Shown here: one piece after another, positions 35,254-53,823 of the stretch | How the letters are laid out: each line of letters opens with the position of its first letter | Position numbering within the stretch: position 1 is the first letter of the stretch | NCBI GenBank assembly: GCA_017461445.1 | Contig: JAFTXW010000022.1 | Location: forward strand, 3,890 to 67,889 | DNA length: 64,000 bases | DNA from: Oscillospiraceae bacterium | Lineage (GTDB): Bacteria > Bacillota > Clostridia > Oscillospirales > Oscillospiraceae | Direction: 5' to 3' | Translations under genes and position numbers: made by a program | The notes under the pieces: generated by a model | Seen by the model: only the letters and a program-made list of their open reading frames with translations | Databases searched by the model: none | What the model was told of the DNA's origin: nothing

Positions 35254-37143
35254 ATGGAAAAAATGCAGTTTAAGGCAGAATCTCAGCGTCTTCTGGACCT
35301 GATGATCAACTCCATCTACACCCACCGGGAGATCTTCCTGCGAGAGATCATCTCTAACGCAAGCGATGCCATCGACAAGCTGGCCTACACCGCCCTGACC
35401 GATGACAAGGTGGGCATCTCCCGGGACCAGTTCGCCATCACCATCACCCGGGACGAGGAAAACCGCACCCTGACTGTTTCCGATAACGGCATCGGTATGT
35501 CCAAGGAGGACATGGAGGAGAACCTGGGTACCATCGCCAAGTCCGGCTCTCTGGGCTTTAAGCAGGCTATGGAAAAGCAGGAGGACATCGACATCATCGG
35601 CCAGTTCGGCGTGGGCTTCTACTCCGCCTTTATGGTGGCTTCCTCCATCACCGTCATCTCCAGGAAGTACGGCGAGGACAAGGCCTGGAAGTGGGTCTCC
35701 GACGGCGCAGACGGCTACACCATCGAGGAGACCGAGAAGGACGCTCCCGGCACCGACATCATTATGACACTGAAAGCCGACACCGAGGAGGACAAGTATT
35801 CCGAATTCCTGGAGGAGTATGAGATCCGCTCTCTGATCCGCAAGTATTCCGACTATATCCGCTACCCCATCCGCATGGAGGTCAGCAAGTCCCGCAAGAA
35901 GGAGGATTCTCCCGAAGACAAGCCCGAGTACGAATCCTACCTGGAAATGGAGACCCTCAACTCCATGGTGCCCATCTGGCAGCGGGCCAAGAAGGACGTT
36001 TCCGATGAGGAATACGAATCCTTCTACCGGGAAAAGTTCTTCGACTACAACAAGCCCCTGCGGGTGATTCATTCCAGTGCCGAAGGAAGTGTCAGCTTCA
36101 AGGCTCTGCTGTATATCCCCGGCAAGGCACCCTACGATTTCTACACCAAGGACTTCAAGCGGGGCCTGCAGCTGTATTCCAGCGGCGTGATGATCATGGA
36201 AAACTGCGAAGACCTTCTGCCCGAGCACTTCCGCTTCGTCCGGGGCATCGTGGACAGCCAGGATCTTTCCCTGAACATCAGCCGTGAGATGCTGCAGCAC
36301 AACCGCCAGCTGACCATCATCGCCCGGAACATCGAGAAGAAGATCAAGTCCGAGCTGAAAAACATGCTGGAAAACGACCGGGAGAAGTACGAGGAATTCT
36401 ACGCCGCCTTCGGCCGTCAGCTGAAGTACGGCACTGTCTCCGACTATGGTGCCCACAAGGATGCCTGCCAGGATTTGCTGCTGTTCTACAGCCACAAGGA
36501 AAGCAAGCTGGTCAGCCTGAAAGAGTACGTGGAGGCCATGCCCGAGGGACAGGAGAAGATCTATTTCGCTCCCGGTGAGAATAAGGACCGTCTGGCAAAG
36601 CTGCCCCAGGTTCAGACCCTGGAGAAGAAGGGCTACGATGTGCTGCTCTTCACCGAGGATGTGGACGAGTTCATCCCCCAGACCCTGATGACCTACATGG
36701 AGAAGCAGTTCTGCAACATCTCCACTGAGGATTTGGGCCTGCAGACCGAGGAGGAGAAGAAGGAGGCTGAGGAGAAGGCCGAGGAGCTGAAGGGCTTCCT
36801 GACCTTCGTGAAGGAATCCCTGGGCGAGCAGGTGAAGGAAGTGAAGCTGTCCCAGAACCTGGGCAATCAGCCCGTCTGCATGACCCCTGATGCTGGCATG
36901 AGCTTCGAGATGGAGAAGTATATGAAGCGGATGAACCCGGAGTTCGCCTACCCCGTGGGCCGCATTCTGGAGCTGAACGCCGACCATGAGGCCGTCCAGG
37001 CCATGCAGAAGGCCATGACCGAGGATCCCCTCAAGGCCAAGGATTACGCCCAGCTGCTGTGCTACCAGGCCCAGCTGATGGCGGAGCTTCCCCTGGAGGA
37101 TCCCTTCGCCTATACCGAGTTGGTCTGTAAGCTGATGAAGTAA
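35254..37143 (+). CDS. htpG: Molecular chaperone HtpG (Hsp90)
   Basis: 'FLRELISNASDA', 'IGQFGVGFYS' and 'LNISREMLQ' are Hsp90 signatures; 629 aa. Confidence 0.95.
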   Translation: MEKMQFKAESQRLLDLMINSIYTHREIFLREIISNASDAIDKLAYTALTDDKVGISRDQFAITITRDEENRTLTVSDNGIGMSKEDMEENLGTIAKSGSLGFKQAMEKQEDIDIIGQFGVGFYSAFMVASSITVISRKYGEDKAWKWVSDGADGYTIEETEKDAPGTDIIMTLKADTEEDKYSEFLEEYEIRSLIRKYSDYIRYPIRMEVSKSRKKEDSPEDKPEYESYLEMETLNSMVPIWQRAKKDVSDEEYESFYREKFFDYNKPLRVIHSSAEGSVSFKALLYIPGKAPYDFYTKDFKRGLQLYSSGVMIMENCEDLLPEHFRFVRGIVDSQDLSLNISREMLQHNRQLTIIARNIEKKIKSELKNMLENDREKYEEFYAAFGRQLKYGTVSDYGAHKDACQDLLLFYSHKESKLVSLKEYVEAMPEGQEKIYFAPGENKDRLAKLPQVQTLEKKGYDVLLFTEDVDEFIPQTLMTYMEKQFCNISTEDLGLQTEEEKKEAEEKAEELKGFLTFVKESLGEQVKEVKLSQNLGNQPVCMTPDAGMSFEMEKYMKRMNPEFAYPVGRILELNADHEAVQAMQKAMTEDPLKAKDYAQLLCYQAQLMAELPLEDPFAYTELVCKLMK

Positions 37144-37149
37144 GCGCAA

Positions 37150-37215
37150 GTTAGGAGTTAGGAATTAGGGGTGAGGAATTTTACCATTCCTGATTTCTAA
37201 TTCCTACTTTTTTCT
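37150..37215 (+). terminator. htpG terminator built from AT-rich word palindromes
   Basis: taggaattag...ctaattccta outer stem, gaggaat/attcct inner stem, then cttttttc. Confidence 0.65.
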
Positions 37216-37268
37216 TCCCAATGGTGTGCAAATGTGCTATACTATTCAAAAAATGTGGAGGGAATCCT

Positions 37269-37766
37269 ATGAGTAAGAAAAAGACACTCACCATTGGCCT
37301 GACGATCATTGCTGTCTGTCTGTTGATCTGCGTGGTCTACGGAGTGATGAACCGCAGTGAGAAGCGGGGGCCGACCCAGCAGGAAATGGAAGCCTATGCT
37401 CCCTATGCCATCAACTGGCAGGAAGCCACCGGACTGGAAGGCACCGAAAAGGAGATCATCCTGAGCCTTTGCACCTTTGTTGAGGAAAAGACCATCGGCC
37501 AAAACCTGTATCAGATCTATACCTCCGATACCCTGGGCGGATACCTGTACGGCTTCACGGAAATGAACCAGATCGCGGAGCTGGACGGCGCGGTGTATGT
37601 CCAGTATTATGCCCAGGATGGAGATATGGTCACCCTGAACTACTCCGATGCGGGACTGACGGAGTTGGGTGTTTATGATGCGGAAACGGATACCTTCTAC
37701 CATGACCTGAACGGTACCGTGGAAGTCTGGACCAATTTCCGCAGCGGTATCCAATGGGGCGCGTAA
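37269..37766 (+). CDS. Hypothetical N-terminally anchored protein (165 aa)
   Basis: I chose ATG 37269 as the start because GGAGGG lies upstream. It has a signal-anchor 'LTIGLTIIAVCLLICVV'. Confidence 0.6.
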   Translation: MSKKKTLTIGLTIIAVCLLICVVYGVMNRSEKRGPTQQEMEAYAPYAINWQEATGLEGTEKEIILSLCTFVEEKTIGQNLYQIYTSDTLGGYLYGFTEMNQIAELDGAVYVQYYAQDGDMVTLNYSDAGLTELGVYDAETDTFYHDLNGTVEVWTNFRSGIQWGA

Positions 37767-37844
37767 ATTCCATAGAAAATTCCTTGCGCTGAGAAGGAAT
37801 GTGTGGTAAACTGATCCCAAATAAACAGAAAGTGAGGAATCTCG

Positions 37845-38561
37845 ATGTCGCCTGCTTATGAGTATTCTTATATGATGGAGGAGGGCGTCAGTGCGGTGCT
37901 GTCCGGACTGTTTTCCACCATCCCTTCCGGCCTGCTGAATATTGCCGGCTATGTACTGACCGCGTTGGCCCTGTATACCCTGGCCCAGCGGCGGGGAATT
38001 AAGAACCCCTGGCTCAGCTGGATCCCTGTGGTGAATGTGTGGATCTTAGGCTCCCTGTCCGACCAGTACCGCTATGTGGTCAAGGGCGAGAATAAGTCCA
38101 AGCGGAAGTTCCTGCTGGTACTGAATATCCTTTCCGCGGTTATGACTGCCGTGATCGTGGTGGTGGCACTGGTGATGCTGGTGGATGTGATCGGCAGTAC
38201 CATGTATGGCGTGGTGAGTGAAGCGGAACTGATGGAGGCGATCTTGGGCCCTGTTGTCGGTATTGTGGGTCTGGCCCTGCCTCTGGCGGGTGTTGGCATT
38301 GCCTACATGGTCATCTACTTCATGGCACTGCATGATGTGTACGCTTCCATGGATCCTGATAACAAGGTGCTGTTCCTGGTGCTGAGCATCCTGCTCGGTG
38401 TGACGAAGCCCTTTTTCCTGTTCTTTAACCGGAACAAAGATCTGGGTATGCCTCCCAGAAAGCAGGAGCCTGTCTTTACCCCGCCCCAGGAGCCCCAGTG
38501 GCAGCCCCAGCAGCCCATCCAGGAACCCTGGGAGAACTCCGAAAATAAGGATTACCTGTAA
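37845..38561 (+). CDS. Hypothetical polytopic membrane protein with a Pro/Gln-rich C-terminal tail
   Basis: Four or five TM helices; tail 'PPRKQEPVFTPPQEPQWQPQQPIQEPW'. Confidence 0.6.
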   Translation: MSPAYEYSYMMEEGVSAVLSGLFSTIPSGLLNIAGYVLTALALYTLAQRRGIKNPWLSWIPVVNVWILGSLSDQYRYVVKGENKSKRKFLLVLNILSAVMTAVIVVVALVMLVDVIGSTMYGVVSEAELMEAILGPVVGIVGLALPLAGVGIAYMVIYFMALHDVYASMDPDNKVLFLVLSILLGVTKPFFLFFNRNKDLGMPPRKQEPVFTPPQEPQWQPQQPIQEPWENSENKDYL

Positions 38562-38567
38562 TACCCA

Positions 38568-38599
38568 CCGGAACCTCGCAAGAGGTTCCGGTCTTTTTT
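38568..38599 (+). terminator. Rho-independent terminator
   Basis: ccggaacctc-gcaa-gaggttccgg followed by tctttttt. Confidence 0.85.
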
Positions 38600-38600
38600 G

Positions 38601-38629
38601 TTGACAAATACGAACAGATGTTTTATAAT
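38601..38629 (+). promoter_or_regulatory. Consensus promoter with an embedded LexA (Cheo-type) SOS box
   Basis: TTGACA (38601-06), 17-nt spacer, TATAAT (38624-29). CGAACAGATGTTTT (38611-24) matches CGAACRNRYGTTYC at 13 of 14 positions. Confidence 0.7.
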
Positions 38630-38658
38630 AATGCCATCGAAAAAAGGAGGAATTCGCT

Positions 38659-38853
38659 ATGAATGTCTACGAAACCTGCCCCGAGGTATCCAACGACCGC
38701 TTCGTCCTTCGGCTTGTGAGGGAAAGCGACTGCGCCGACCTGCTGAAGGTATACTCCGACGAGGCGGCAGTTCCCTTGTTTAACAGCGATAACTGCAACG
38801 GAGATGCCCCCGAGGCTGCGGAGGAAGCGAAGAAAGAGCTATGCACTTTGTAA
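38659..38853 (+). pseudogene. N-terminal remnant of a GNAT-type acetyltransferase (64 codons)
   Basis: 'FVLRLVRESDCADLLKVYSDEAAVPLFNSDNCNGD' is the start of a GNAT family I recognise. It then diverges and stops, overlapping the next gene by 13 nt. Confidence 0.45.
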
Positions 38854-39707
38854 CGGCGAAGGGCATTCTGTCGGCCCAAAACGGCTTGAATCTTTACCGG
38901 GGCTGCCAGCATGGGTGCATCTACTGCGATGCCAGGAGTAAGTGCTATCAGATGGATCACATCTTTGAGGATATCGAGGTGAAGGGAAACGCCATTTCCC
39001 TGTTGGATGCCGCCCTGCGGGTCAAGCGAAAGCCCTGTATGATCGGTACCGGGGCCATGTCGGATCCTTACATGCCCCTGGAACGGAAGCTGGGAATGAC
39101 CCGAAAAATGCTGGAAACGGTGGAAAAGCACGGCTTCGGTGCAACACTGCTGACAAAGTCCGACGAAGTCCTACGGGATCTGGACATTCTGACGCGGATC
39201 AACCGCCGCACCAAGGCGGTGGTGCAGATGACCCTGACCACCTGGGACGAGGAGCTGTGCCGCATCGTGGAGCCGGGGGTGTGCACCACCGCCCACCGGG
39301 TGGCAGCATTGAAGGAATTGCAGACGGCGGGGATCCCCACGGTGGTGTGGCTGTGCCCCATTCTGCCATTTTTGAATGATACAGAGGAAAATATTCTGCG
39401 CATTGTAGGTGCCTGCGCCGACGCAGGGGTGAAGGGTATCATCCAGTTCGGTATGGGGCTGACCCTGCGGGAGGGGAACCGGGAATATTTTTACGCGAAA
39501 CTGGACAAATTCTTCCCGGGGCTGAAGGAGCGGTATGTCCGTACCTACGGCTATGCCTACGAACTGCCCAGCCCCAATGAGCGGAGATTGCTGCGGCTGT
39601 TTCACGAGACCTGTGAAGCCCGGGGCATCTGGCACGACAATGGCAAAATCTTTGCGTATCTGCATACCTTTGAGGAAAAATCGGAGCAGCTGAGTTTGTT
39701 TGAATAG
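38841..39707 (+). CDS. Radical SAM protein, SplB / COG1533 'DNA repair photolyase'-like
   Basis: 'YRGCQHGCIYCDA' CxxxCxxC cluster near the N-terminus, 'GAMSDPYMPLE', 'LTKSDEVLRDLDIL' and 'CPILPFLND'. Confidence 0.75.
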   Translation: MHFVTAKGILSAQNGLNLYRGCQHGCIYCDARSKCYQMDHIFEDIEVKGNAISLLDAALRVKRKPCMIGTGAMSDPYMPLERKLGMTRKMLETVEKHGFGATLLTKSDEVLRDLDILTRINRRTKAVVQMTLTTWDEELCRIVEPGVCTTAHRVAALKELQTAGIPTVVWLCPILPFLNDTEENILRIVGACADAGVKGIIQFGMGLTLREGNREYFYAKLDKFFPGLKERYVRTYGYAYELPSPNERRLLRLFHETCEARGIWHDNGKIFAYLHTFEEKSEQLSLFE

Positions 39708-39723
39708 AAATGGAGGCGGAAGG

Positions 39724-41244
39724 ATGACAAAGCAATATGTAGCCATCGATTTGAAATCCTTCTATGCCTCTGTGGAGTGTGTGGAACGGGGACTGGACCC
39801 GCTGACCACCAATCTGCTGGTGGCGGATGCGGGTCGGACGGAAAAGACTATCTGTCTGGCGGTGTCTCCCAGTCTCAAGGCCTACGGTATCCCCGGCCGG
39901 GCAAGGCTCTTCGAGGCGGTGCAGAAGGTGAAGGAGGCCAATGCCCTCCGCCGAAGCCACACGCCCAAGCACGAATTTACCGGGAAATCCTGGGATTCCA
40001 AGGCGTTGAAGGAGACCCCGGCTCTGGAGATCGATTACATCACCGCCCCGCCCCGAATGGCCCATTACATGGCCTACAGCGGGAAAATCTACGAGATTTA
40101 CCTCCAATTTGTGGCCCCGGAGGATATCCATGTCTATTCCATTGATGAGGTGTTCATCGATGTGACCCCCTATCTCAGAACTTACGGCATGACCGCCCGG
40201 GAATTGACTGTGGCCATGATCCGGGAGGTACTGAAGCAGACGGGCATCACGGCCACGGCGGGCATCGGCACCAATCTGTACCTGTGCAAGGTGGCCATGG
40301 ATATTGTTGCCAAGCATGTGGAGCCGGATAAGGATGGAGTGCGCATCGCGGAGCTGGATGAAATGTCCTACCGGCAGCTTCTTTGGGATCACCGGCCATT
40401 GACCGACTTCTGGCGGGTGGGCCGGGGCATTGCCCGGAAGCTGGAAAAGAACGGCATGTTCACCATGGGGGACGTGGCCCGGTGCTCTATCGGAAATCCA
40501 AACGAATTTTTCAATGAGGAGCTGCTGTATAAGCTGTTCGGCGTAAATGCGGAGCTGCTGATCGATCATGCCTGGGGCTGGGAAAGCTGCACCATCACCG
40601 ATATCAAGGCCTACCGGCCCACCACCAATTCCCTTGGTTCCGGACAGGTGCTCCACTGCGCCTATACGGCCCAAAAGGCGAAGCTGATCGTCCGGGAAAT
40701 GACAGACCTGCTGGTGCTGGATCTGGTAGACAAGGGGCTGGTGACGGATCAGATGGTGCTGACCGTCGGCTACGACATTGAAAATCTCACCGATCCGGAG
40801 ATCAGTAAGTATTACAAGGGCCCGGTGGTGACGGACCACTATGGGCGGAAAATTCCCAAGCACGCTCACGGCACTGCAAATCTGCGCCGCCAGACCTCCT
40901 CCACGGCCATCATCACCGAAGCGGTGATGGAGCTTTATGACCGGATCGTGGATCCAAACCTGCTGGTGCGCCGGGTCAATCTGGTGGCGGCCCGTATCGT
41001 GGACGAAAAAAGTGCCGCCGAAGCGGCACCCATGGAGCAGCTGGACCTGTTTTCGGACTTCGAGACAGATCAGAAGCGGCGGGAGGAAGAGGAAGCGGCC
41101 CTGCGGCGGGAAAAACGCCGCCAGCAGGCTGTGATTACCATCAAGAAAAAGTACGGCAAGAACGCCATCCTCAAGGGCATGAATCTGGAGGAGGGGGCCA
41201 CTGCCAAAGACCGCAACCGCCAGATCGGCGGACACAAAGCATGA
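39724..41244 (+). CDS. Y-family (translesion) DNA polymerase, UvrX/YqjW-like
   Basis: 'YVAIDLKSFYASVECV' catalytic N-terminus, 'YSIDEVFIDVT' and a little-finger region. I chose ATG 39724 as the start because GGAGG lies upstream. Confidence 0.85.
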   Translation: MTKQYVAIDLKSFYASVECVERGLDPLTTNLLVADAGRTEKTICLAVSPSLKAYGIPGRARLFEAVQKVKEANALRRSHTPKHEFTGKSWDSKALKETPALEIDYITAPPRMAHYMAYSGKIYEIYLQFVAPEDIHVYSIDEVFIDVTPYLRTYGMTARELTVAMIREVLKQTGITATAGIGTNLYLCKVAMDIVAKHVEPDKDGVRIAELDEMSYRQLLWDHRPLTDFWRVGRGIARKLEKNGMFTMGDVARCSIGNPNEFFNEELLYKLFGVNAELLIDHAWGWESCTITDIKAYRPTTNSLGSGQVLHCAYTAQKAKLIVREMTDLLVLDLVDKGLVTDQMVLTVGYDIENLTDPEISKYYKGPVVTDHYGRKIPKHAHGTANLRRQTSSTAIITEAVMELYDRIVDPNLLVRRVNLVAARIVDEKSAAEAAPMEQLDLFSDFETDQKRREEEEAALRREKRRQQAVITIKKKYGKNAILKGMNLEEGATAKDRNRQIGGHKA

Positions 41245-41254
41245 AGGAGCAGCC

Positions 41255-41671
41255 ATGAAGCTGAAAAACACCCACAAATACGACGACATCATCCACCTGC
41301 CCCACCCAGTGTCCCAGCGGCGCAGCCGGATGACCAATTACGACCGGGCGGCCCAGTTTTCCCCCTTCGCGGCCCTGACGGGCTACGACGCGGTGATCGA
41401 GGAGACGGCCCGACTGACGGACAGCCGTATTGAGCTGGACCAGGGAGCGGTGGAGCAGCTGAATGAGCGGCTGCTGGAAATTCGGGACAGCATATCCTCC
41501 CGCCCGCTGGTTACCCTGACCTGGTTTCGCCGGGACGAACGAAAAGCCGGCGGCGCATACATCCGCGCCACCGGCCGCGTGAAGAAAATCGACAGCTATA
41601 CCAATACCATCGTGCTGACGGACGGAACGGTGATCCCCATCCGGGAGCTGGCTGACGCGGAGCTGCTGTAA
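41255..41671 (+). CDS. YolD-like protein (UmuD-surrogate accessory of Y-family polymerases)
   Basis: 'DRAAQFSPFAALTGYD' YolD-type motif; 10 nt after the polymerase stop. Confidence 0.7.
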   Translation: MKLKNTHKYDDIIHLPHPVSQRRSRMTNYDRAAQFSPFAALTGYDAVIEETARLTDSRIELDQGAVEQLNERLLEIRDSISSRPLVTLTWFRRDERKAGGAYIRATGRVKKIDSYTNTIVLTDGTVIPIRELADAELL

Positions 41672-41803
41672 GGGAATGCCCTCCAGAATACCTGTTTCGT
41701 GCCTTCCTTCGGCCAATATCCTTGCGTTTCCCAAATGGGGTTGTTCTTTTCGAGGTTTTTCGATAGAATTCGAAAAGTAATTGAATAAAAAGGAGGTATT
41801 TCC

Positions 41804-42706
41804 ATGTCTGGGGAAATACTTGCCGCCGAAGGTTATTCTGTGCTGATGGCCGTGTACGCGGGATCCGTGCCTGGGGAGCTGCGCTCCGCTGTGGAGAGTA
41901 TGCTGGCCCAGACGCTGCCCACCGATGACTTCGTGCTGGTGTGCGACGGGCCTCTGACAGATGCGCTGGATGTTGTGATCACCTCCTTTACCTGCCAGTT
42001 TCCGGGCCTGTTTCAGATCCTGCGGCTGCCCCGGCACCGGGGGCTTGTGGCCGCGCTGAACGCGGGCCTTCCTCTGTGCCGCCATGAGTTGGTGGCTCGG
42101 ATGGACAGCGACGATATCAGCCTGCCCCACCGCTGTCAGCGGCAGGCGGACTTTTTCGCGGCCCACCCGGAGCTGCACATTCTCAGCGGCACCGTTCTGG
42201 AATTTACAGACCACACCGACAATATCACCGGGATGCGGCTGCTGCCCTCCGGTGACCGAAATATCCGCCGCTTTTCCCGAAAACGAAGTCCCTTCAACCA
42301 TCCTGCGGTAATGTACCGCAAAAGCGCGGTAGCCGCAGCGGGCGGTTACCGGGAAGACCATCCGCTATTTGAAGATTACGATCTGTGGGTCCGTATGCTG
42401 TGCGCCGGCTTTCGGGGGGAGAACCTCCGGGAGCCGCTTTTGTTTATGCGCGCCGGGCCGGGAATGTACCGCCGCCGGGGCGGTATGCGTTACGCCCGGA
42501 ATTTGCTGCGGTTCCACCGGGAACTGTGGCGCAGCGGATGGAGCGGCCCGGCGGATTATATCGCAGGAGCGGTACCCCACGCCCTGGCCTGTGTGCTTCC
42601 CACAGAACTGCTGGGGCGGGTTTACGGCCTGCTCCACCGGAAAGCCGGCAAGGATACGGAGCGTGGATACCCGGCCCTGCAGCCCTTCCGCGGGATCCCG
42701 GGCTGA
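41804..42706 (+). CDS. Family-2 glycosyltransferase
   Basis: 'YSVLMAVYAG', 'VLVCDGP' and 'ARMDSDDIS' (DxD). Confidence 0.8.
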   Translation: MSGEILAAEGYSVLMAVYAGSVPGELRSAVESMLAQTLPTDDFVLVCDGPLTDALDVVITSFTCQFPGLFQILRLPRHRGLVAALNAGLPLCRHELVARMDSDDISLPHRCQRQADFFAAHPELHILSGTVLEFTDHTDNITGMRLLPSGDRNIRRFSRKRSPFNHPAVMYRKSAVAAAGGYREDHPLFEDYDLWVRMLCAGFRGENLREPLLFMRAGPGMYRRRGGMRYARNLLRFHRELWRSGWSGPADYIAGAVPHALACVLPTELLGRVYGLLHRKAGKDTERGYPALQPFRGIPG

Positions 42707-42844
42707 TGTGTAACGGTCGCTGACGGGCCGGTGCAGGCAATGAACAATTCCTGTATCTGTTCTCTCCAAAAAAGGGACTTTCTATTGCCTTTTTCCCGAT
42801 TTTATCGTATGATGTTGGTAACTACACAAGAGGGAGCGTCGAAT

Positions 42845-43975
42845 ATGGAGCAAATGAACAAGTGGGTCAGTGTGTGGGGAAACGCCGTTTCCGTCGCTGA
42901 AAACCGTCCCGAGCGGTACGCGAAAGACATCACCATCCGCTATCCCATCCACATCCCCTTTGCCGGGAATGCCCTGCGGCTGACCTTTGACAATTACTGC
43001 GGTACCGAGCCCATTACGCTGACGAAAACCACCGTTTTCTACGGCGGACACTTCTACCCCGTTCTGTTTGGCGGTCAGCAGAGCGTCACCATCGGTACGG
43101 GGGAGCGCACTGTGTCCGATCCCCTTTCCGTCACCCTGATCGAAGGCGAGATCATTCAGGTCAGCTTCTACCTGGCGGACTTCACCCTGATGCGCAGCGT
43201 GGTCTACACCTGCGGCCCCTTGTCCGAGGGCCTCTACGCCAACGGCGACGAGACCGAGACCGCCCACATTGACCGGGAGACCTCCCGCAAGACCCACCTG
43301 TGCTACTTCCTCAGCAACGTGTCCGTGCTGACCGCCCCGGAGAACCGGGCTATCGTCTGCTACGGCGACTCCATCACCGCCCAGGACTGGCCGGACTGCC
43401 TGGCCCTGCGGTGCTTCCGGGAGGGCTACGGCAGCACCGCCATCATCCGCCGGGCCACCTCCGGCTCCCGCATCCTGCGGGAATACACCTGCCTGACCTA
43501 CGAATCCTACGGCCTCATGGGCAGCCACCGGTTCCACCACGAAGTTCCCACCGACGGTGCCGACGTGGTCATTATCCAGCAGGGCATCAATGACATCATC
43601 CATCCCGTAGGCGAAAATGTCAATGTGTTCCGCCCCATGAGCGACCTGCCTACGGTGGAGCAGCTGATCGAGGGTCTGAAAACCTACATCGCCCAGGCCC
43701 GCTCCTTTGGGCTTAAGGTCTATGTGGGAACCCTGCTCCCCATGGGTGGCTGGCGTACCGACGCCCCCTTCCGCCAGGAGATGCGCCATGCCTATAATGA
43801 ATTTATCCGCACCACCGACCTGATCGACGGCTGCATCGACTTCGACAGGGCCCTCCGGGACCCGGAGAACCCCGACTGGTTCCGGCCCCAATACGACTCC
43901 GGCGACCACCTCCACCCCAGCCCCGCAGGCTACGAGCGGATGGCAATGGAAATTCCGGCGGAACTGCTGAAATGA
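42845..43975 (+). CDS. SGNH/GDSL-family hydrolase with an N-terminal beta-sandwich domain
   Basis: Block I 'VCYGDSIT', block III 'QQGINDI', block V 'SGDHLHPS'. I chose ATG 42845 as the start. Confidence 0.75.
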   Translation: MEQMNKWVSVWGNAVSVAENRPERYAKDITIRYPIHIPFAGNALRLTFDNYCGTEPITLTKTTVFYGGHFYPVLFGGQQSVTIGTGERTVSDPLSVTLIEGEIIQVSFYLADFTLMRSVVYTCGPLSEGLYANGDETETAHIDRETSRKTHLCYFLSNVSVLTAPENRAIVCYGDSITAQDWPDCLALRCFREGYGSTAIIRRATSGSRILREYTCLTYESYGLMGSHRFHHEVPTDGADVVIIQQGINDIIHPVGENVNVFRPMSDLPTVEQLIEGLKTYIAQARSFGLKVYVGTLLPMGGWRTDAPFRQEMRHAYNEFIRTTDLIDGCIDFDRALRDPENPDWFRPQYDSGDHLHPSPAGYERMAMEIPAELLK

Positions 43976-44015: not shown

Positions 44016-44157
44016 CGCGTAGGGGCGACCCTTGCGGTCGCCCGGCGATTTGGTACAAATCGCACCGCCGAAGGCGGCAAAAACATTCCCAAATGGGGAG
44101 AGTCTTGATGCGATGCTACGCATCGCATCGGGCGACCGCTAGGGTCGCCCCTACGCG
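44016..44157. repeat. ~142-bp MITE-like element with subtype-C terminal inverted repeats
   Basis: The 29-bp arms differ at one loop base. The interior holds three short hairpins (gatttgg/caaatc, ccgccg/cggcgg, gatgcgatgc/gcatcgcatc). Confidence 0.8.
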
Positions 44158-51292: not shown

Positions 51293-51433
51293 TTATCCGA
51301 AAAAGTCCCGGTTTATTGGACACTAACTGTGATATCCTCCTGTTGCCCGGACAGGAAGTTGCGGAACAGAGGTTTTCCGAGCTGTTACAAAAAATGACAT
51401 TCCGCTTTTCCTCTTGACAAAATTCCTTATCTG

Positions 51434-51481
51434 TGGCAATATATTGTGGAGGTTTGACAAAAATGACACAACATGTTGTGT
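51434..51481 (+). promoter_or_regulatory. Tandem NrdR boxes overlapping the nrdD promoter
   Basis: tggCAATATATTGtgg (51434-49) and the perfect palindrome ACACAACATGTTGTGT (51466-81), with centres 32 bp apart. TTGACA lies at 51414-19. Confidence 0.75.
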
Positions 51482-51540
51482 CCTGTGCTGGAGCACGGCT
51501 CCCTGTACCTCAATACCTACAGAAAGACAGGACGGAAACT

Positions 51541-53823
51541 ATGATTCAAAGTATTATCAAGCGTGACGGCCGCGTGGTGCTCTATGACCAGAACAAGATC
51601 GCCGCAGCCATTCTGCGTTCCCTGGAGGTCTCCGGTGACGGCGATGCCGCCGATGCTGCCCGTGTGGCTAACGACGTTCAGAGCGATCTGGAACGCCGCT
51701 TCCCCGCCGAGGCTCCCAATATCGAAGCTATTCAGGATACCGTGGAGCGTCAGCTGATGAACCATGGCTTCAACGCCGCCGCCAAGGCCTACATTCTCTA
51801 CCGTGCAAACCGCACCCGGGCCCGGGAGGCCAACACCGCCCTGATGAAGACCATCGACGAGATCACCAACATCGATGCCCGCATCAGCGATATGAAGCGC
51901 GACAACGCCAACATAGACGGCAACACCGCCATGGGCAGCATGCTGCAGATCGGCTCCGCCGGTGCCAAGGCCTACAATGAGATTTACCTGCTCCGCCCCG
52001 AGCACGCCAAGGCCTATCGGGAGGGCGACATCCACATCCATGATTTTGATTTTTACTCCCTGACCACCACCTGCTGCCAGATCGATATTCTGAAGCTGTT
52101 CCACGGCGGCTTCTCCACCGGCCACGGCTACCTGCGGGAGCCCAACTCCATCCAGAGCTACGCCGCCCTGGCCGCCATTGCCATCCAGAGTAACCAGAAC
52201 GACCAGCACGGCGGCCAGTCCATCCCCAACTTCGACTACGGCATGGCCGAGGGCGTTGCCAAGACCTACCGCAAGGCCTTTACCCGCCGCCTGAAGGATG
52301 CTGTGGAGGACTATCTGGATCTGGCGGACGAGGAATCCGCTGTGCGGGCCATCGTTGCCAAGGCAGAGGCCCAGACCGGCGAGACCGCCCGGCTGGAAAC
52401 CGGTAAAGCCTTCGCCGCCGCCATTGCCGCCGGACTGAAGGCACAGTACGATCTGAACGAGACCCTGTCCCACAAGCTCATCACCCGGGCCTCCATCCGG
52501 GCCTACAAGAAGACCGACCGGGACACCATGCAGGCTATGGAGGGCTTTGTGCACAACCTGAACACCATGCACTCCCGTGCCGGTGCCCAGACCCCCTTCT
52601 CCTCCATCAACTACGGCACCGACACCAGCCCCGAGGGCCGCATGGTCATCCGCAACATCCTGCTGGCTCTGGATGCGGGCCTGGGTCACGGCGAGACCTG
52701 CATCTTCCCCATCCACATCTTCAAGGTCAAGGAAGGCGTCAACTACAACCCCGAGGACCCCAACTATGACCTGTTCCGCCTCAGCTGCAAGGTCAGTGCC
52801 AAGCGTCTGTTCCCCAACTATACCTTCCTGGACTCTCCCTTCAACCTGCAATACTATGTCCCCGGCCGCCCTGAGACGGAGGTCGCCACCATGGGCTGCC
52901 GTACCCGCGTCATGGGCAACGTCTATGACCCCACCCGGCAGATCGCCTACTCCCGCGGCAACCTCTCCTTCACCTCCATTAATCTGCCTCGTCTTGCCAT
53001 CGAAAGCAAGGGCGACGAGAAGCTGTTCTATGAAAAGCTGCAGCATATGCTGGAGCTGACCGCCCAGCAGCTGCTGGACCGCTTTGAGATCCAGGCCAAT
53101 AAGCACATTTACAACTACCCCTTCCTGATGGGCCAGGGCGTGTGGCTGGATTCCGATACCCTCACCCTGAAGGACGACCTGCGGGAGGTTTTGAAGCACG
53201 GCACCATGTCCATCGGCTTCATCGGCCTGGCCGAGACCCTCACCGCCCTCTACGGCAGCCACCACGGCGAAAGTGAGGAGCTGCAGAAGAAGGGCCTTGA
53301 GATCATCGGCTTCATGCGGGATTACTGTGACCGCAAATCTCAGGAAATGAGGATGAATTTTACCCTGCTGGGCACCCCCGCCGAGGGCCTCTCCGGCCGG
53401 TTTATCCGCATGGATCAGAAGCGGTTCGGCAAGATCAAGGGCGTTACCGACCGGGAATACTACACCAACTCCTTCCATATCCCTGTCTGGTATCCCATCT
53501 CCGTTTATGACAAGATCCGTCTGGAAGCTCCCTACCACGCCCTGTGCAACGCAGGCCACATCAGCTATGTGGAGCTGGACGGCGACACCGCCCGGAATGT
53601 GGAGGCCTTCGAGGCCGTGGTTCGCTGTATGCACGACTGCGGCGTGGGCTACGGCTCCATTAACCATCCCGTTGACCGTGACCCCGTCTGCGGCTATGTG
53701 GGCATCATCGGCGATGTCTGCCCCCGCTGCGGCCGCCGCGAAGGCGAGGAGATCGCCCCCGAGCGTGTGGAAGAGCTGAGAAGAATGTACCCCGAAATGC
53801 CCGCATTTCAGGGAATCGAATGA
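51541..53823 (+). CDS. nrdD: Anaerobic ribonucleoside-triphosphate reductase, large polypeptide lacking the glycyl-radical tail
   Basis: ATP-cone 'IIKRDGRVVLYDQNKI', class III core, and Zn-ribbon 'CGYVGIIGDVCPRCG'. It ends at TGA 53821-23. Confidence 0.9.
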   Translation: MIQSIIKRDGRVVLYDQNKIAAAILRSLEVSGDGDAADAARVANDVQSDLERRFPAEAPNIEAIQDTVERQLMNHGFNAAAKAYILYRANRTRAREANTALMKTIDEITNIDARISDMKRDNANIDGNTAMGSMLQIGSAGAKAYNEIYLLRPEHAKAYREGDIHIHDFDFYSLTTTCCQIDILKLFHGGFSTGHGYLREPNSIQSYAALAAIAIQSNQNDQHGGQSIPNFDYGMAEGVAKTYRKAFTRRLKDAVEDYLDLADEESAVRAIVAKAEAQTGETARLETGKAFAAAIAAGLKAQYDLNETLSHKLITRASIRAYKKTDRDTMQAMEGFVHNLNTMHSRAGAQTPFSSINYGTDTSPEGRMVIRNILLALDAGLGHGETCIFPIHIFKVKEGVNYNPEDPNYDLFRLSCKVSAKRLFPNYTFLDSPFNLQYYVPGRPETEVATMGCRTRVMGNVYDPTRQIAYSRGNLSFTSINLPRLAIESKGDEKLFYEKLQHMLELTAQQLLDRFEIQANKHIYNYPFLMGQGVWLDSDTLTLKDDLREVLKHGTMSIGFIGLAETLTALYGSHHGESEELQKKGLEIIGFMRDYCDRKSQEMRMNFTLLGTPAEGLSGRFIRMDQKRFGKIKGVTDREYYTNSFHIPVWYPISVYDKIRLEAPYHALCNAGHISYVELDGDTARNVEAFEAVVRCMHDCGVGYGSINHPVDRDPVCGYVGIIGDVCPRCGRREGEEIAPERVEELRRMYPEMPAFQGIE

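What the first reader, a model, noticed from the sequence alone, without database searches (positions are those of the whole stretch)
38601..41671. SOS-box operon: SplB-like radical-SAM enzyme, Y-family polymerase and YolD
A textbook promoter (TTGACA-17-TATAAT) carries CGAACAGATGTTTT in its spacer. That is a 13/14 match to the Firmicute LexA/DinR box CGAACRNRYGTTYC.

The genes behind it are tightly packed:
- a 64-codon GNAT remnant
- a radical-SAM protein with the CxxxCxxC cluster 'CQHGCIYC' and COG1533 / spore-photoproduct-lyase-like blocks
- a Y-family polymerase
- a YolD-like protein 10 nt further on

The YolD plus PolY pairing is established (B. subtilis yqjX-yqjW, SPbeta yolD-uvrX). A radical-SAM lyase-like enzyme as the lead gene of a LexA-controlled translesion cassette is not something I know to be characterised. 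The arrangement suggests direct radical-based lesion reversal coupled to lesion bypass in an anaerobe that cannot use photolyase.
Basis: partly seen in the sequence, partly recalled or inferred. Interest (0 to 1): 0.7.

Follow-up and report, generated by a model that had tools for sequence, protein, structure and literature searches.

The report
SOS operon: radical-SAM, translesion polymerase, YolD
This is a DNA-damage-inducible (LexA-controlled) operon in a gut Oscillospiraceae bacterium that joins two already known kinds of SOS genes, an uncharacterised radical-SAM enzyme and an error-prone polymerase with its small YolD partner, so it is a lineage-specific arrangement and not a new repair system.

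Summary
A 12/12 sigma-70 promoter (38601-38629) carries GAACAGATGTTT in its spacer. Behind it lie a 64-codon GNAT fragment, a 288-aa radical-SAM protein, a Y-family polymerase and a YolD-like protein, all tightly packed.

In the window the box alone is no more frequent than chance. The composite -35/box/-10 module, however, occurs 17 times (14 distinct loci) in 1.44 Mb of related sequence, against about 0.1 expected. Every copy lies directly upstream of this radical-SAM gene or its operon.

The radical-SAM protein is not spore photoproduct lyase (17 bits against a cut-off of 400). Its nearest curated families are PA0069 and Rv2578c, both known SOS genes of unknown chemistry. LexA control of such COG1533 proteins is already in the literature.

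Linkage to PolY-YolD is partial:
- 6 of 12 sampled close relatives have it.
- 1 of 80 species-representative genomes has it.
- 0 of 80 closest PolY-YolD loci carry the radical-SAM gene.

The linked polymerases form one clade, which points to a single fusion. Shared LexA control is well supported. Mechanistic coupling and "lesion reversal" remain inference.

Verdict: a new variant of a known kind, of modest interest.

The parts
38567..38592 (+). Intrinsic-terminator-like hairpin plus T-run that ends the upstream 238-aa membrane-protein gene. It marks the 5' boundary of the unit.
   Evidence: 11-bp stem, 7 GC pairs, T-run. It is conserved in the syntenic relatives L161 and L164.
38601..38629 (+). 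Sigma-70-type promoter: TTGACA (-35), 17-nt spacer, TATAAT (-10).
   Evidence: 12/12, the only perfect match in 37000-43000. The same module is found in 14 distinct related loci.
38611..38624 (+). LexA/DinR-type operator CGAACAGATGTTTT (core GAAC-N4-GTTT at 38612-38623). It fills the spacer and shares its last T with the -10 hexamer.
   Evidence: GAAC....GTTT operators of C. difficile lexA, recA and ruvC bind LexA (PMC4234289). GAAC and GTTY are invariant and N4 varies across 14 loci. The motif is 39-fold enriched upstream of related PolY genes.
38659..38853 (+). 64-codon leader ORF, an N-terminal fragment (about 51 aa, to roughly 38811) of an Acetyltransf_3-type GNAT. It is probably a non-functional remnant and overlaps the radical-SAM start by 13 nt.
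   Evidence: homologues P0246 and P0249 match Acetyltransf_3 positions 4-75. It is absent from the syntenic relative L161, where the promoter lies about 50 nt from the radical-SAM start. It has no Pfam hit of its own.
38841..39707 (+). Radical-SAM enzyme of 288 aa. It belongs to COG1533 and is related to the PA0069/Rv2578c families but distinct from them. The CxxxCxxC motif is encoded at 38904-38927. Five further invariant Cys are C35, C66, C140, C192 and C258.
   Evidence: PF04055, 48.5 bits against 29.5. NF033668 at 7e-43 and NF038135 at 5e-40, both below cut-off, and TIGR04070 at 0.0019; phrog_13321 at 1e-81; conservation over 90 sequences.
39724..41244 (+). Y-family translesion DNA polymerase of 506 aa. 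Catalytic motifs are AIDLKSFY (residue 7) and SIDE (residue 139). A beta-clamp-type motif QLDLF lies at 41038-41052, followed by a conserved C-terminal tail.
   Evidence: IMS at 91.5 bits and IMS_C at 37 bits, both above cut-off; best match is the PRK03103 subfamily; motifs; it forms one clade with the other radical-SAM-linked PolYs.
41255..41671 (+). YolD-like small subunit of 138 aa, 10 nt after the polymerase stop.
   Evidence: PF08863, E=0.035; 30 of 52 relatives hit PF08863, best 4e-7; this ORF family lies directly downstream of PolY in about 73 of 80 loci; the N-terminal motif DRAAQFSPFAAL is invariant.

Best explanation
The region is a LexA-repressed (SOS) operon on the chromosome of an Oscillospiraceae bacterium.

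How it is switched (inferred from sequence and conservation). A LexA dimer binds GAACAGATGTTT, which sits between and overlaps the -35 and -10 hexamers of a consensus promoter, and so excludes RNA polymerase. After DNA damage, RecA-stimulated self-cleavage of LexA frees the promoter. One mRNA is then made that covers four reading frames.

What the mRNA encodes:
- a decayed GNAT fragment in the leader;
- a COG1533-type radical-SAM enzyme;
- a catalytically intact UvrX/YqjW-type Y-family polymerase;
- its YolD-like small subunit.

PolY-YolD is the Gram-positive counterpart of Pol V and bypasses lesions. This role is inferred from family membership.

The radical-SAM enzyme belongs to the SOS-associated branch of COG1533, nearest to PA0069 and Rv2578c, and is not spore photoproduct lyase. 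Its substrate is unknown. The most likely role is radical chemistry on damaged DNA, and this is inference.

History of the arrangement. The LexA promoter plus radical-SAM gene is the older, conserved unit. The PolY-YolD pair was joined downstream of it once in this lineage. What the arrangement demonstrably provides is shared regulation. A mechanistic hand-off between the two has not been shown.
For: Regulation:
- The promoter is 12/12 with the operator in its spacer.
- The composite TTGnnn-N3-7-GAAC-N4-GTTY-TAnnnT occurs 17 times (14 distinct loci) in 1.44 Mb of fetched DNA, against about 0.09 expected. Every copy lies directly upstream of this radical-SAM gene or its operon.
- GAAC and GTTY are invariant, while N4 and the flanks vary.
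- GAAC-N4-GTTY is 39-fold enriched in the 200 nt upstream of 77 related PolY genes (P about 7e-17).
- The same operator form binds LexA in C. difficile.

Operon structure:
- Gaps are -13, 16 and 10 nt, with no + strand terminator inside.
- Spacing is short in five of six relatives checked: rSAM-PolY gaps of 15-20 nt in L001, L164, L166, L168 and L170, against 96 nt in L161.

Gene identities.

Prior knowledge:
- The nearest curated families of the radical-SAM protein are SOS genes. Rv2578c has a LexA ChIP-seq site with RecA-dependent induction. PA0069 is one of 15 SOS genes.
- A radical-SAM protein is listed in the Gram-positive core SOS regulon.
- PolY-YolD has been proposed as a mutasome.

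History:
- 11 of 12 sampled close relatives have the box, and 6 of 12 have PolY-YolD downstream.
- The linked PolYs form a single clade.
Against: - No lexA gene and no other boxed SOS gene is present in the window to tie the motif to this organism's LexA.
- In the window the box alone is at chance frequency.
- No experiment supports binding or induction.
- The DNA-directed role of the radical-SAM enzyme rests on distant family relationships. It scores far below the cut-offs of PA0069 (147 against 360) and Rv2578c (138 against 430).
- About 77 of 80 more distant family members (62-72% identity) have neither a box nor any repair neighbour.
- The radical-SAM tree is poorly resolved once more sequences are added. 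The single-fusion inference therefore rests mainly on the PolY tree.
Confidence: 0.75

Rival explanations
1. Coupled repair and bypass. The radical-SAM enzyme directly reverses or remodels a replication-blocking lesion, for example a spore-photoproduct-like thymine dimer or a cross-link. It works as a dedicated partner of the PolY-YolD mutasome, which explains the shared operon.
For: The three genes stay together, with rSAM-PolY gaps of 15-20 nt in five loci and 96 nt in L161, in at least 5 different genomic contexts. This holds across divergence to 71-80% (rSAM) and 74-86% (PolY) identity. SPL gives the best full-length TM-scores among the PDB hits (0.50-0.54). Aravind's neighbourhood analysis links SplB-like radical-SAM genes to mutagenic-polymerase modules.
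Against: Half of the sampled close relatives keep the same LexA promoter and radical-SAM gene without PolY-YolD (L167, L171-L174). None of the 80 closest PolY-YolD loci has the radical-SAM gene. The SPL HMM is essentially unmatched. The fold hits are generic, and the model has a mean pLDDT of only 69.
Confidence: 0.15
2. The radical-SAM enzyme does not act on DNA. It modifies a nucleotide, an RNA, a protein or a small molecule. It has simply been recruited to the SOS regulon in this lineage, and its adjacency to PolY-YolD is incidental.
For: Most family members at 62-72% identity sit in unrelated, non-conserved contexts with no LexA box. There is no detectable sequence relative of known structure. 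Five extra invariant cysteines hint at chemistry unlike SPL. Leader slots of the operon hold unrelated genes such as GNAT, SnoaL-like and GyrI-like.
Against: The nearest curated families are SOS genes in Mycobacterium and Pseudomonas. COG1533 genes recur in LexA regulons that use unrelated operator motifs, which argues for a damage-related role.
Confidence: 0.2
3. The box is not a LexA operator. Either it is a chance match inside a strong promoter, or another repressor recognises it.
For: Matches of this quality occur at chance frequency in the window. The right half-site is GTTTT and not GTTCG. No lexA gene is seen in the window.
Against: The composite module has 17 occurrences against about 0.09 expected, all in front of this gene. 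The half-sites are conserved while the spacer varies. The motif is strongly enriched upstream of PolY genes. GAAC-N4-GTTT is the experimentally bound form in C. difficile.
Confidence: 0.05

Closest known systems
SOS-regulated COG1533 radical-SAM genes ("splB" of the Erill-lab regulon studies; M. tuberculosis Rv2578c; P. aeruginosa PA0069; S. venezuelae vnz_31145)
   Same: It is a radical-SAM core with an N-terminal CxxxCxxC motif and the best HMM similarity to these families. It lies directly behind a LexA operator, and its biochemical function is unknown.
   Different: It scores far below both family cut-offs and is shorter (288 aa against 317-348 model positions), so it is a separate clostridial subfamily. 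Here it is the lead gene of an operon with PolY-YolD instead of a solo gene.
B. subtilis yqjX-yqjW and SPbeta yolD-uvrX (the putative Gram-positive Pol V-like mutasome)
   Same: It pairs a LexA-box-controlled Y-family polymerase with a YolD-family small protein. The polymerase has a clamp motif and a conserved C-terminal tail.
   Different: The gene order is reversed, with YolD downstream of the polymerase. The YolD homologue is divergent and below the Pfam cut-off on its own. The promoter is shared with an upstream radical-SAM gene.
Spore photoproduct lyase (SplB/SPL, TIGR04070; PDB 4FHC-4FHF, 4K9R)
   Same: Both belong to the radical-SAM superfamily and to COG1533. SPL gives the best full-length TM-score among the PDB matches (0.50-0.54).
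   Different: The HMM score is 17 bits against a cut-off of 400. No hit is found in a profile search of PDB sequences. It is controlled by a LexA-type promoter, whereas SPL is a sporulation gene (this last point is from my own knowledge). It has five extra invariant Cys.
COG1573-COG4277 uracil-DNA-glycosylase / radical-SAM SOS pair, and ImuB-C-linked SplB-like genes (Aravind 2013)
   Same: These are precedents for radical-SAM enzymes embedded in SOS or mutagenesis gene neighbourhoods.
   Different: The radical-SAM family is different, and no UDG-like, DUF4130 or ImuB-C partner is present here.

Membership tests
Firmicute LexA/DinR operator | GAAC-N4-GTTC/T inverted-repeat core | tested here: met
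   GAACAGATGTTT at 38612-38623. The form GAAC....GTTT is the one found at C. difficile lexA, recA and ruvC.
Firmicute LexA/DinR operator | Overlaps core promoter elements of the regulated gene | tested here: met
   It lies within the 17-nt spacer and shares a T with the -10 hexamer.
Firmicute LexA/DinR operator | Conserved in orthologous promoters and enriched at SOS-type genes in related taxa | tested here: met
   17 composite sites (14 distinct loci) against about 0.09 expected. The motif is 39-fold enriched upstream of PolY.
Firmicute LexA/DinR operator | Bound by LexA, with the gene induced by DNA damage | not testable with these tools
   This needs EMSA or ChIP and RT-qPCR.
Firmicute LexA/DinR operator | Same motif at lexA, recA and uvr genes of the same genome | not tested
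   None of these genes was recognised in the 64-kb window. The rest of the genome was not available.
Radical SAM superfamily (PF04055) | Pfam model above gathering score, and a CxxxCxxC cluster motif | tested here: met
   48.5 bits against 29.5. C22, C26 and C29 are invariant in 90 sequences.
Spore photoproduct lyase (TIGR04070) | Equivalog HMM above its cut-off | tested here: not met
   17.2 bits against 400, E=0.0019.
Spore photoproduct lyase (TIGR04070) | Structure specifically SPL-like | tested here: inconclusive
   The AF2 model has a mean pLDDT of 69. In Foldseek, PFL-activase is top by E-value, and SPL has TMq 0.50-0.54, similar to SkfB and MiaB.
Spore photoproduct lyase (TIGR04070) | Catalytic Cys/Tyr hydrogen-transfer chain | not testable with these tools
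   No reliable residue-level alignment to SPL could be obtained.
PA0069 family radical SAM (NF033668) | HMM above its cut-off over the full length | tested here: not met
   146.9 bits against 360. Only model positions 57-248 of 348 are matched.
Rv2578c family radical SAM (NF038135) | HMM above its cut-off | tested here: not met
   137.6 bits against 430. The alignment spans model positions 60-314 of 317.
Y-family DNA polymerase | IMS and IMS_C domains above gathering score, with catalytic acidic motifs present | tested here: met
   IMS at 91.5 against 23.2 and IMS_C at 37 against 20.7. AIDLKSFY and SIDE are present.
UvrX/YqjW-type PolY (NF002848 PRK03103 subfamily) | Subfamily HMM above its cut-off | tested here: not met
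   141.3 bits against 381, although it is the best of ten Pol IV/UmuC models.
UvrX/YqjW-type PolY | Encoded next to a YolD-family gene, with a conserved C-terminal tail after a clamp motif | tested here: met
   The YolD-like ORF starts 10 nt downstream. The pairing is found in about 73 of 80 related loci. QLDLF is followed by a tail. The criterion comes from PMC6511836.
YolD (PF08863) | Pfam model above gathering score | tested here: not met
   The window protein gives 14.6 bits against 27.5, E=0.035.
YolD (PF08863) | Homologous family recognisable as YolD | tested here: met
   30 of 52 aligned relatives (38-58% identical) hit PF08863 at E<=0.01, best 4e-7. 3 of 120 database homologues carry PF08863.
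GNAT (Acetyltransf_3), for the 64-codon ORF | Pfam match | tested here: inconclusive
   The ORF has no hit of its own even at E<=10. Homologues P0246 and P0249 give 22.5-22.9 bits against 25.4, matching model positions 4-75 of 138. Homology to them ends at about residue 51.

The most novel reading that the evidence does not exclude
The radical-SAM enzyme is a dedicated, oxygen-independent lesion-processing partner of the PolY-YolD mutasome. It uses 5'-deoxyadenosyl radical chemistry to reverse or open a replication-blocking DNA lesion, such as an intrastrand dimer, an interstrand cross-link or a DNA-protein cross-link. The result is a substrate the polymerase can copy. The operon would then be a two-step "convert then bypass" SOS module of strict anaerobes, and it would give the long-unexplained SOS-regulated COG1533 genes (Rv2578c, PA0069) a function.
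Probability: 0.12. Interest if true: 0.7.

Novelty: new variant of a known kind. Interest (0 to 1): 0.35.

Why it matters
SOS-regulated COG1533 radical-SAM genes have been seen in LexA regulons from Mycobacterium, Pseudomonas, Streptomyces, Bacteroidetes and others since at least the mid-2000s. No chemistry has been assigned to them.

This clostridial subfamily offers a clean case. It has an unusually stereotyped LexA promoter, and in one lineage it is hard-wired to a translesion polymerase. That could guide the choice of substrates for biochemical tests.

Otherwise the locus adds one more arrangement to the known repertoire of SOS mutagenesis operons in gut anaerobes.

Tried and rejected
- Counting LexA-box matches in the window gave chance levels. 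The other exact matches lie inside a coding region (47956) or in an unconvincing intergenic position (51364).
- A profile search of PDB sequences found no relative, not even SPL.
- The AlphaFold model from a shallow alignment (13 sequences of at least 72% identity) reached a mean pLDDT of only 69, with the cluster-binding N-terminus disordered. Foldseek gave generic radical-SAM hits, so the fold evidence cannot settle SPL-likeness.
- PADLOC gave no defence-system match.
- Rfam found nothing real in 38000-42500. The only hit was a fluoride-riboswitch match at E=0.82 on the wrong strand inside a gene.
- Phage and plasmid collections held only unannotated or generically named homologues.
- The neighbourhood of the 80 genome loci showed no conserved partner gene at all.
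- A first NJ tree suggested a clean "SOS clade" of the radical-SAM protein. Adding 120 database homologues dissolved that resolution. I therefore do not claim monophyly for the radical-SAM gene and claim it only for the linked PolYs.
- I considered a mobile-element origin for the cassette. Related PolY-YolD pairs often sit beside relaxase-like or XRE-like genes. The window copy, however, lies between HtpG, a membrane-protein gene and a glycosyltransferase, with no integrase or repeats seen.


Full report
**1. What is in the sequence**

A terminator-like hairpin (38567-38592) closes the upstream 238-aa membrane-protein gene. Nine bases later comes TTGACA-17-TATAAT (38601-38629). This is a 12/12 match and the only perfect promoter match in 37000-43000.

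The spacer holds CGAACAGATGTTTT (38611-38624), whose last T is the first base of the -10 hexamer.

Four + strand ORFs follow:
- a 64-codon ORF (38659-38853);
- a 288-aa ORF (38841-39707) that overlaps it by 13 nt;
- a 506-aa ORF (39724-41244) after a 16-nt gap;
- a 138-aa ORF (41255-41671) after a 10-nt gap.

No + strand terminator-like site lies inside the unit. Rfam finds no RNA element there.

**2. Gene identities**

*Radical-SAM protein.* The 288-aa protein passes Pfam Radical_SAM (48.5 bits against 29.5) and carries C22-x3-C26-x2-C29. In NCBIfam its best matches are the PA0069 family (7e-43) and the Rv2578c family (5e-40). Both scores fall far below the curated cut-offs (147 against 360 and 138 against 430). 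Spore photoproduct lyase is essentially unmatched (E=0.0019, 17 bits against 400). The protein matches a phage family of unknown function strongly (phrog_13321, 1e-81).

A profile of the family finds no relative among PDB sequences. The AlphaFold model is mediocre (mean pLDDT 69, with a disordered N-terminus). Its Foldseek matches are generic radical-SAM enzymes. PFL-activating enzyme is first by E-value. SPL has the best TM-scores (0.50-0.54), closely followed by SkfB and MiaB.

So this is a COG1533-type radical-SAM enzyme of a separate subfamily. "SplB-like" holds only in the loosest sense. Across 90 homologues, five cysteines beyond the cluster motif are at least 99% conserved: C35, C66, C140, C192 and C258.

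*Polymerase.* The 506-aa protein is a Y-family polymerase. IMS and IMS_C are both above cut-off. Both acidic motifs are intact (AIDLKSFY and SIDE). It has a QLDLF clamp-type motif and a C-terminal tail.

*YolD-like protein.* The 138-aa protein misses Pfam YolD by itself (E=0.035). However, 30 of 52 aligned relatives hit PF08863 (best 4e-7).

*Leader ORF.* The 64-codon ORF has no Pfam hit. Its only database homologues are short fragments. The longer ones (P0246 and P0249, 52% identical) match the first half of Acetyltransf_3 at E about 2e-4. Homology stops at about residue 51. The syntenic relative L161 lacks this segment altogether. It is best read as a decayed GNAT fragment in the leader.

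**3. Is the box more than chance?**

Within the window it is not. Matches to CGAACN4GTTCG with up to 2 mismatches number 23 against 24.9 expected. Exact GAACN4GTTY sites number 4 against 3.3 expected.

The comparative evidence is what counts. I fetched three sets of loci:
- 80 genome loci for the radical-SAM protein;
- 80 metagenome loci for the polymerase;
- 14 loci around the closest database homologues.

In these 1.44 Mb, the composite TTGnnn-N3-7-GAAC-N4-GTTY-TAnnnT occurs 17 times (14 distinct loci) against about 0.09 expected. Every occurrence lies immediately upstream of this radical-SAM gene or of the operon it belongs to.

The hexamers and the GAAC/GTTY half-sites are invariant. The N4 spacer varies (AGAT, GAGT, ACCT, GTTT, GTGT, GGTT, AACT, AGGT), and the flanks are unalignable.

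Independently, GAAC-N4-GTTY is 39-fold enriched in the 200 nt upstream of related PolY genes: 13 sites in 16 kb against 11 in 530 kb (P about 7e-17).

GAAC....GTTT is the operator form at C. difficile lexA, recA and ruvC, and it binds LexA in SPR assays (PMC4234289).

I therefore accept the site as a LexA-type operator. Binding and induction remain untested. No lexA or recA promoter of this genome could be examined.

**4. Is the radical-SAM gene co-conserved with PolY-YolD?**

Only partly.

- *Species-representative genomes.* Among the 80 best loci (62-72% identity), one (L001) has PolY and YolD downstream. Three have the box (L001, L028, L039). The others sit in unrelated, non-conserved contexts.
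- *Closest PolY loci.* Among 80 loci (65-73% identity), none has the radical-SAM gene. About 73 have the YolD-like ORF directly downstream. PolY-YolD is therefore the conserved two-gene module.
- *Closest radical-SAM clusters.* I sampled 12 (72-80% identity).
  - 11 have the LexA promoter.
  - 6 have PolY-YolD downstream: L161-163, L164, L165, L166, L168 and L170.
  - 6 are solo: L167, L169, L171, L172, L173 and L174.
- *Contexts.* The linked copies lie in at least five different genomic contexts. Some have other leader genes: a SnoaL-like gene in L166, and SnoaL-like plus GyrI-like genes in L170.
- *Trees.* In a PolY tree, the radical-SAM-linked polymerases form one clade to the exclusion of 80 others. 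The radical-SAM tree is not well resolved once more sequences are added.

The simplest history has three steps. A LexA-controlled solo radical-SAM gene came first. A single downstream capture of a PolY-YolD pair followed. The trio was then inherited or transferred as a unit, with some losses.

**5. What is already known**

LexA control of COG1533 "splB"/radical-SAM genes is well documented:
- predicted in alpha- and beta-proteobacteria (PMC3323433);
- predicted in Bacteroidetes and, per references cited in that paper, "several species" (PMC8565304);
- listed in the Gram-positive core SOS regulon and in Balneolaeota (PMC7739468);
- supported by LexA ChIP-seq for M. tuberculosis Rv2578c (PMC3381160) and for a Streptomyces radical-SAM gene (PMC9380542);
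- PA0069 is one of the 15 P. aeruginosa SOS genes.

Aravind and colleagues linked SplB-like radical-SAM genes to mutagenic-polymerase neighbourhoods through ImuB-C (PMC3765255).

PolY-YolD has been proposed as the Gram-positive counterpart of Pol V (PMC6511836 and PMC12926913). Neither of those polymerase surveys mentions a radical-SAM neighbour.

What is new here is an operon arrangement and a clostridial subfamily. The idea of an SOS radical-SAM enzyme is not new.

**6. Mechanism and confidence**

*Supported by sequence and conservation:* a LexA-type operator occluding a consensus promoter; one transcription unit; an intact TLS polymerase with its YolD partner.

*Inferred from family knowledge:* RecA-dependent LexA cleavage derepresses the operon; PolY-YolD carries out lesion bypass.

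*Inferred weakly:* the radical-SAM enzyme acts on damaged DNA.

*Not shown:* any mechanistic coupling between the radical-SAM enzyme and the polymerase. Half of the close relatives dispense with the polymerase under the same promoter. That argues for shared regulation rather than obligate partnership.

**7. Verdict**

The locus is a new variant (an operon fusion) of known SOS components. Interest is modest. Its main value is as a tractable entry point to the unresolved chemistry of SOS-regulated COG1533 radical-SAM enzymes.

Noticed in passing
window 44016-44044 and 44129-44157: Two 29-nt GC-rich arms (CGCGTAGGGGCGACCCTTGCGGTCGCCCG and its reverse complement, 97% complementary) lie 84 nt apart in an intergenic stretch. 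They look like a REP-type dispersed palindromic element. Similar GC-rich hairpin sequence fills a roughly 300-nt insertion between terminator and promoter in L164 and L165.
   Followed up: partly
window 51364-51375: A second exact GAAC-N4-GTTT match (GAACAGAGGTTT) lies in the intergenic region upstream of a 796-aa ORF (51433-53823). It does not overlap the TTGACA-like promoter further downstream, and the gene was not identified.
   Followed up: partly
L047, L048, L063 (about 50 nt upstream of the radical-SAM start); partial in L036 and L056: In a different clade of the same radical-SAM family that lacks the LexA box, the upstream region carries a conserved palindrome, TTCTGTTATGATAACAGCAG, centred on a -10-like TATGAT. 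It may be the operator of another repressor.
   Followed up: no
L170 1526-2558; L166 2625-2999: In some relatives the LexA promoter is followed by extra leader genes before the radical-SAM gene. L170 has a SnoaL-like gene and a GyrI-like gene, and L166 has a SnoaL-like gene. From my own knowledge, GyrI/SbmC is itself an SOS gene in E. coli. The slot between promoter and radical-SAM gene appears to accept cargo, and the window's GNAT fragment occupies the same slot.
   Followed up: partly
L171 4872-5561: An AlkZ-related gene (a family of interstrand-cross-link DNA glycosylases) lies about 1.5 kb downstream of a LexA-box solo radical-SAM gene, with two small ORFs in between.
   Followed up: no
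L044 and L057 (contigs of 383 kb and 432 kb): Two long contigs labelled Methanomassiliicoccus (archaeal MAGs) encode this otherwise clostridial radical-SAM protein at 64-65% identity. This could be horizontal transfer or a taxonomic mislabel.
   Followed up: no
window 38841-39707 (protein residues 35, 66, 140, 192, 258): Five cysteines outside the CxxxCxxC motif are at least 99% conserved in 90 homologues. This hints at an auxiliary Fe-S cluster or redox-active cysteines, which SPL does not have in that number.
   Followed up: partly
L161-L165, L170 (downstream or upstream of the cassette): In several relatives the cassette lies next to the anaerobic ribonucleotide reductase genes nrdD and nrdG. 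In the window a GT2 glycosyltransferase (41804-42706) occupies that side instead.
   Followed up: no
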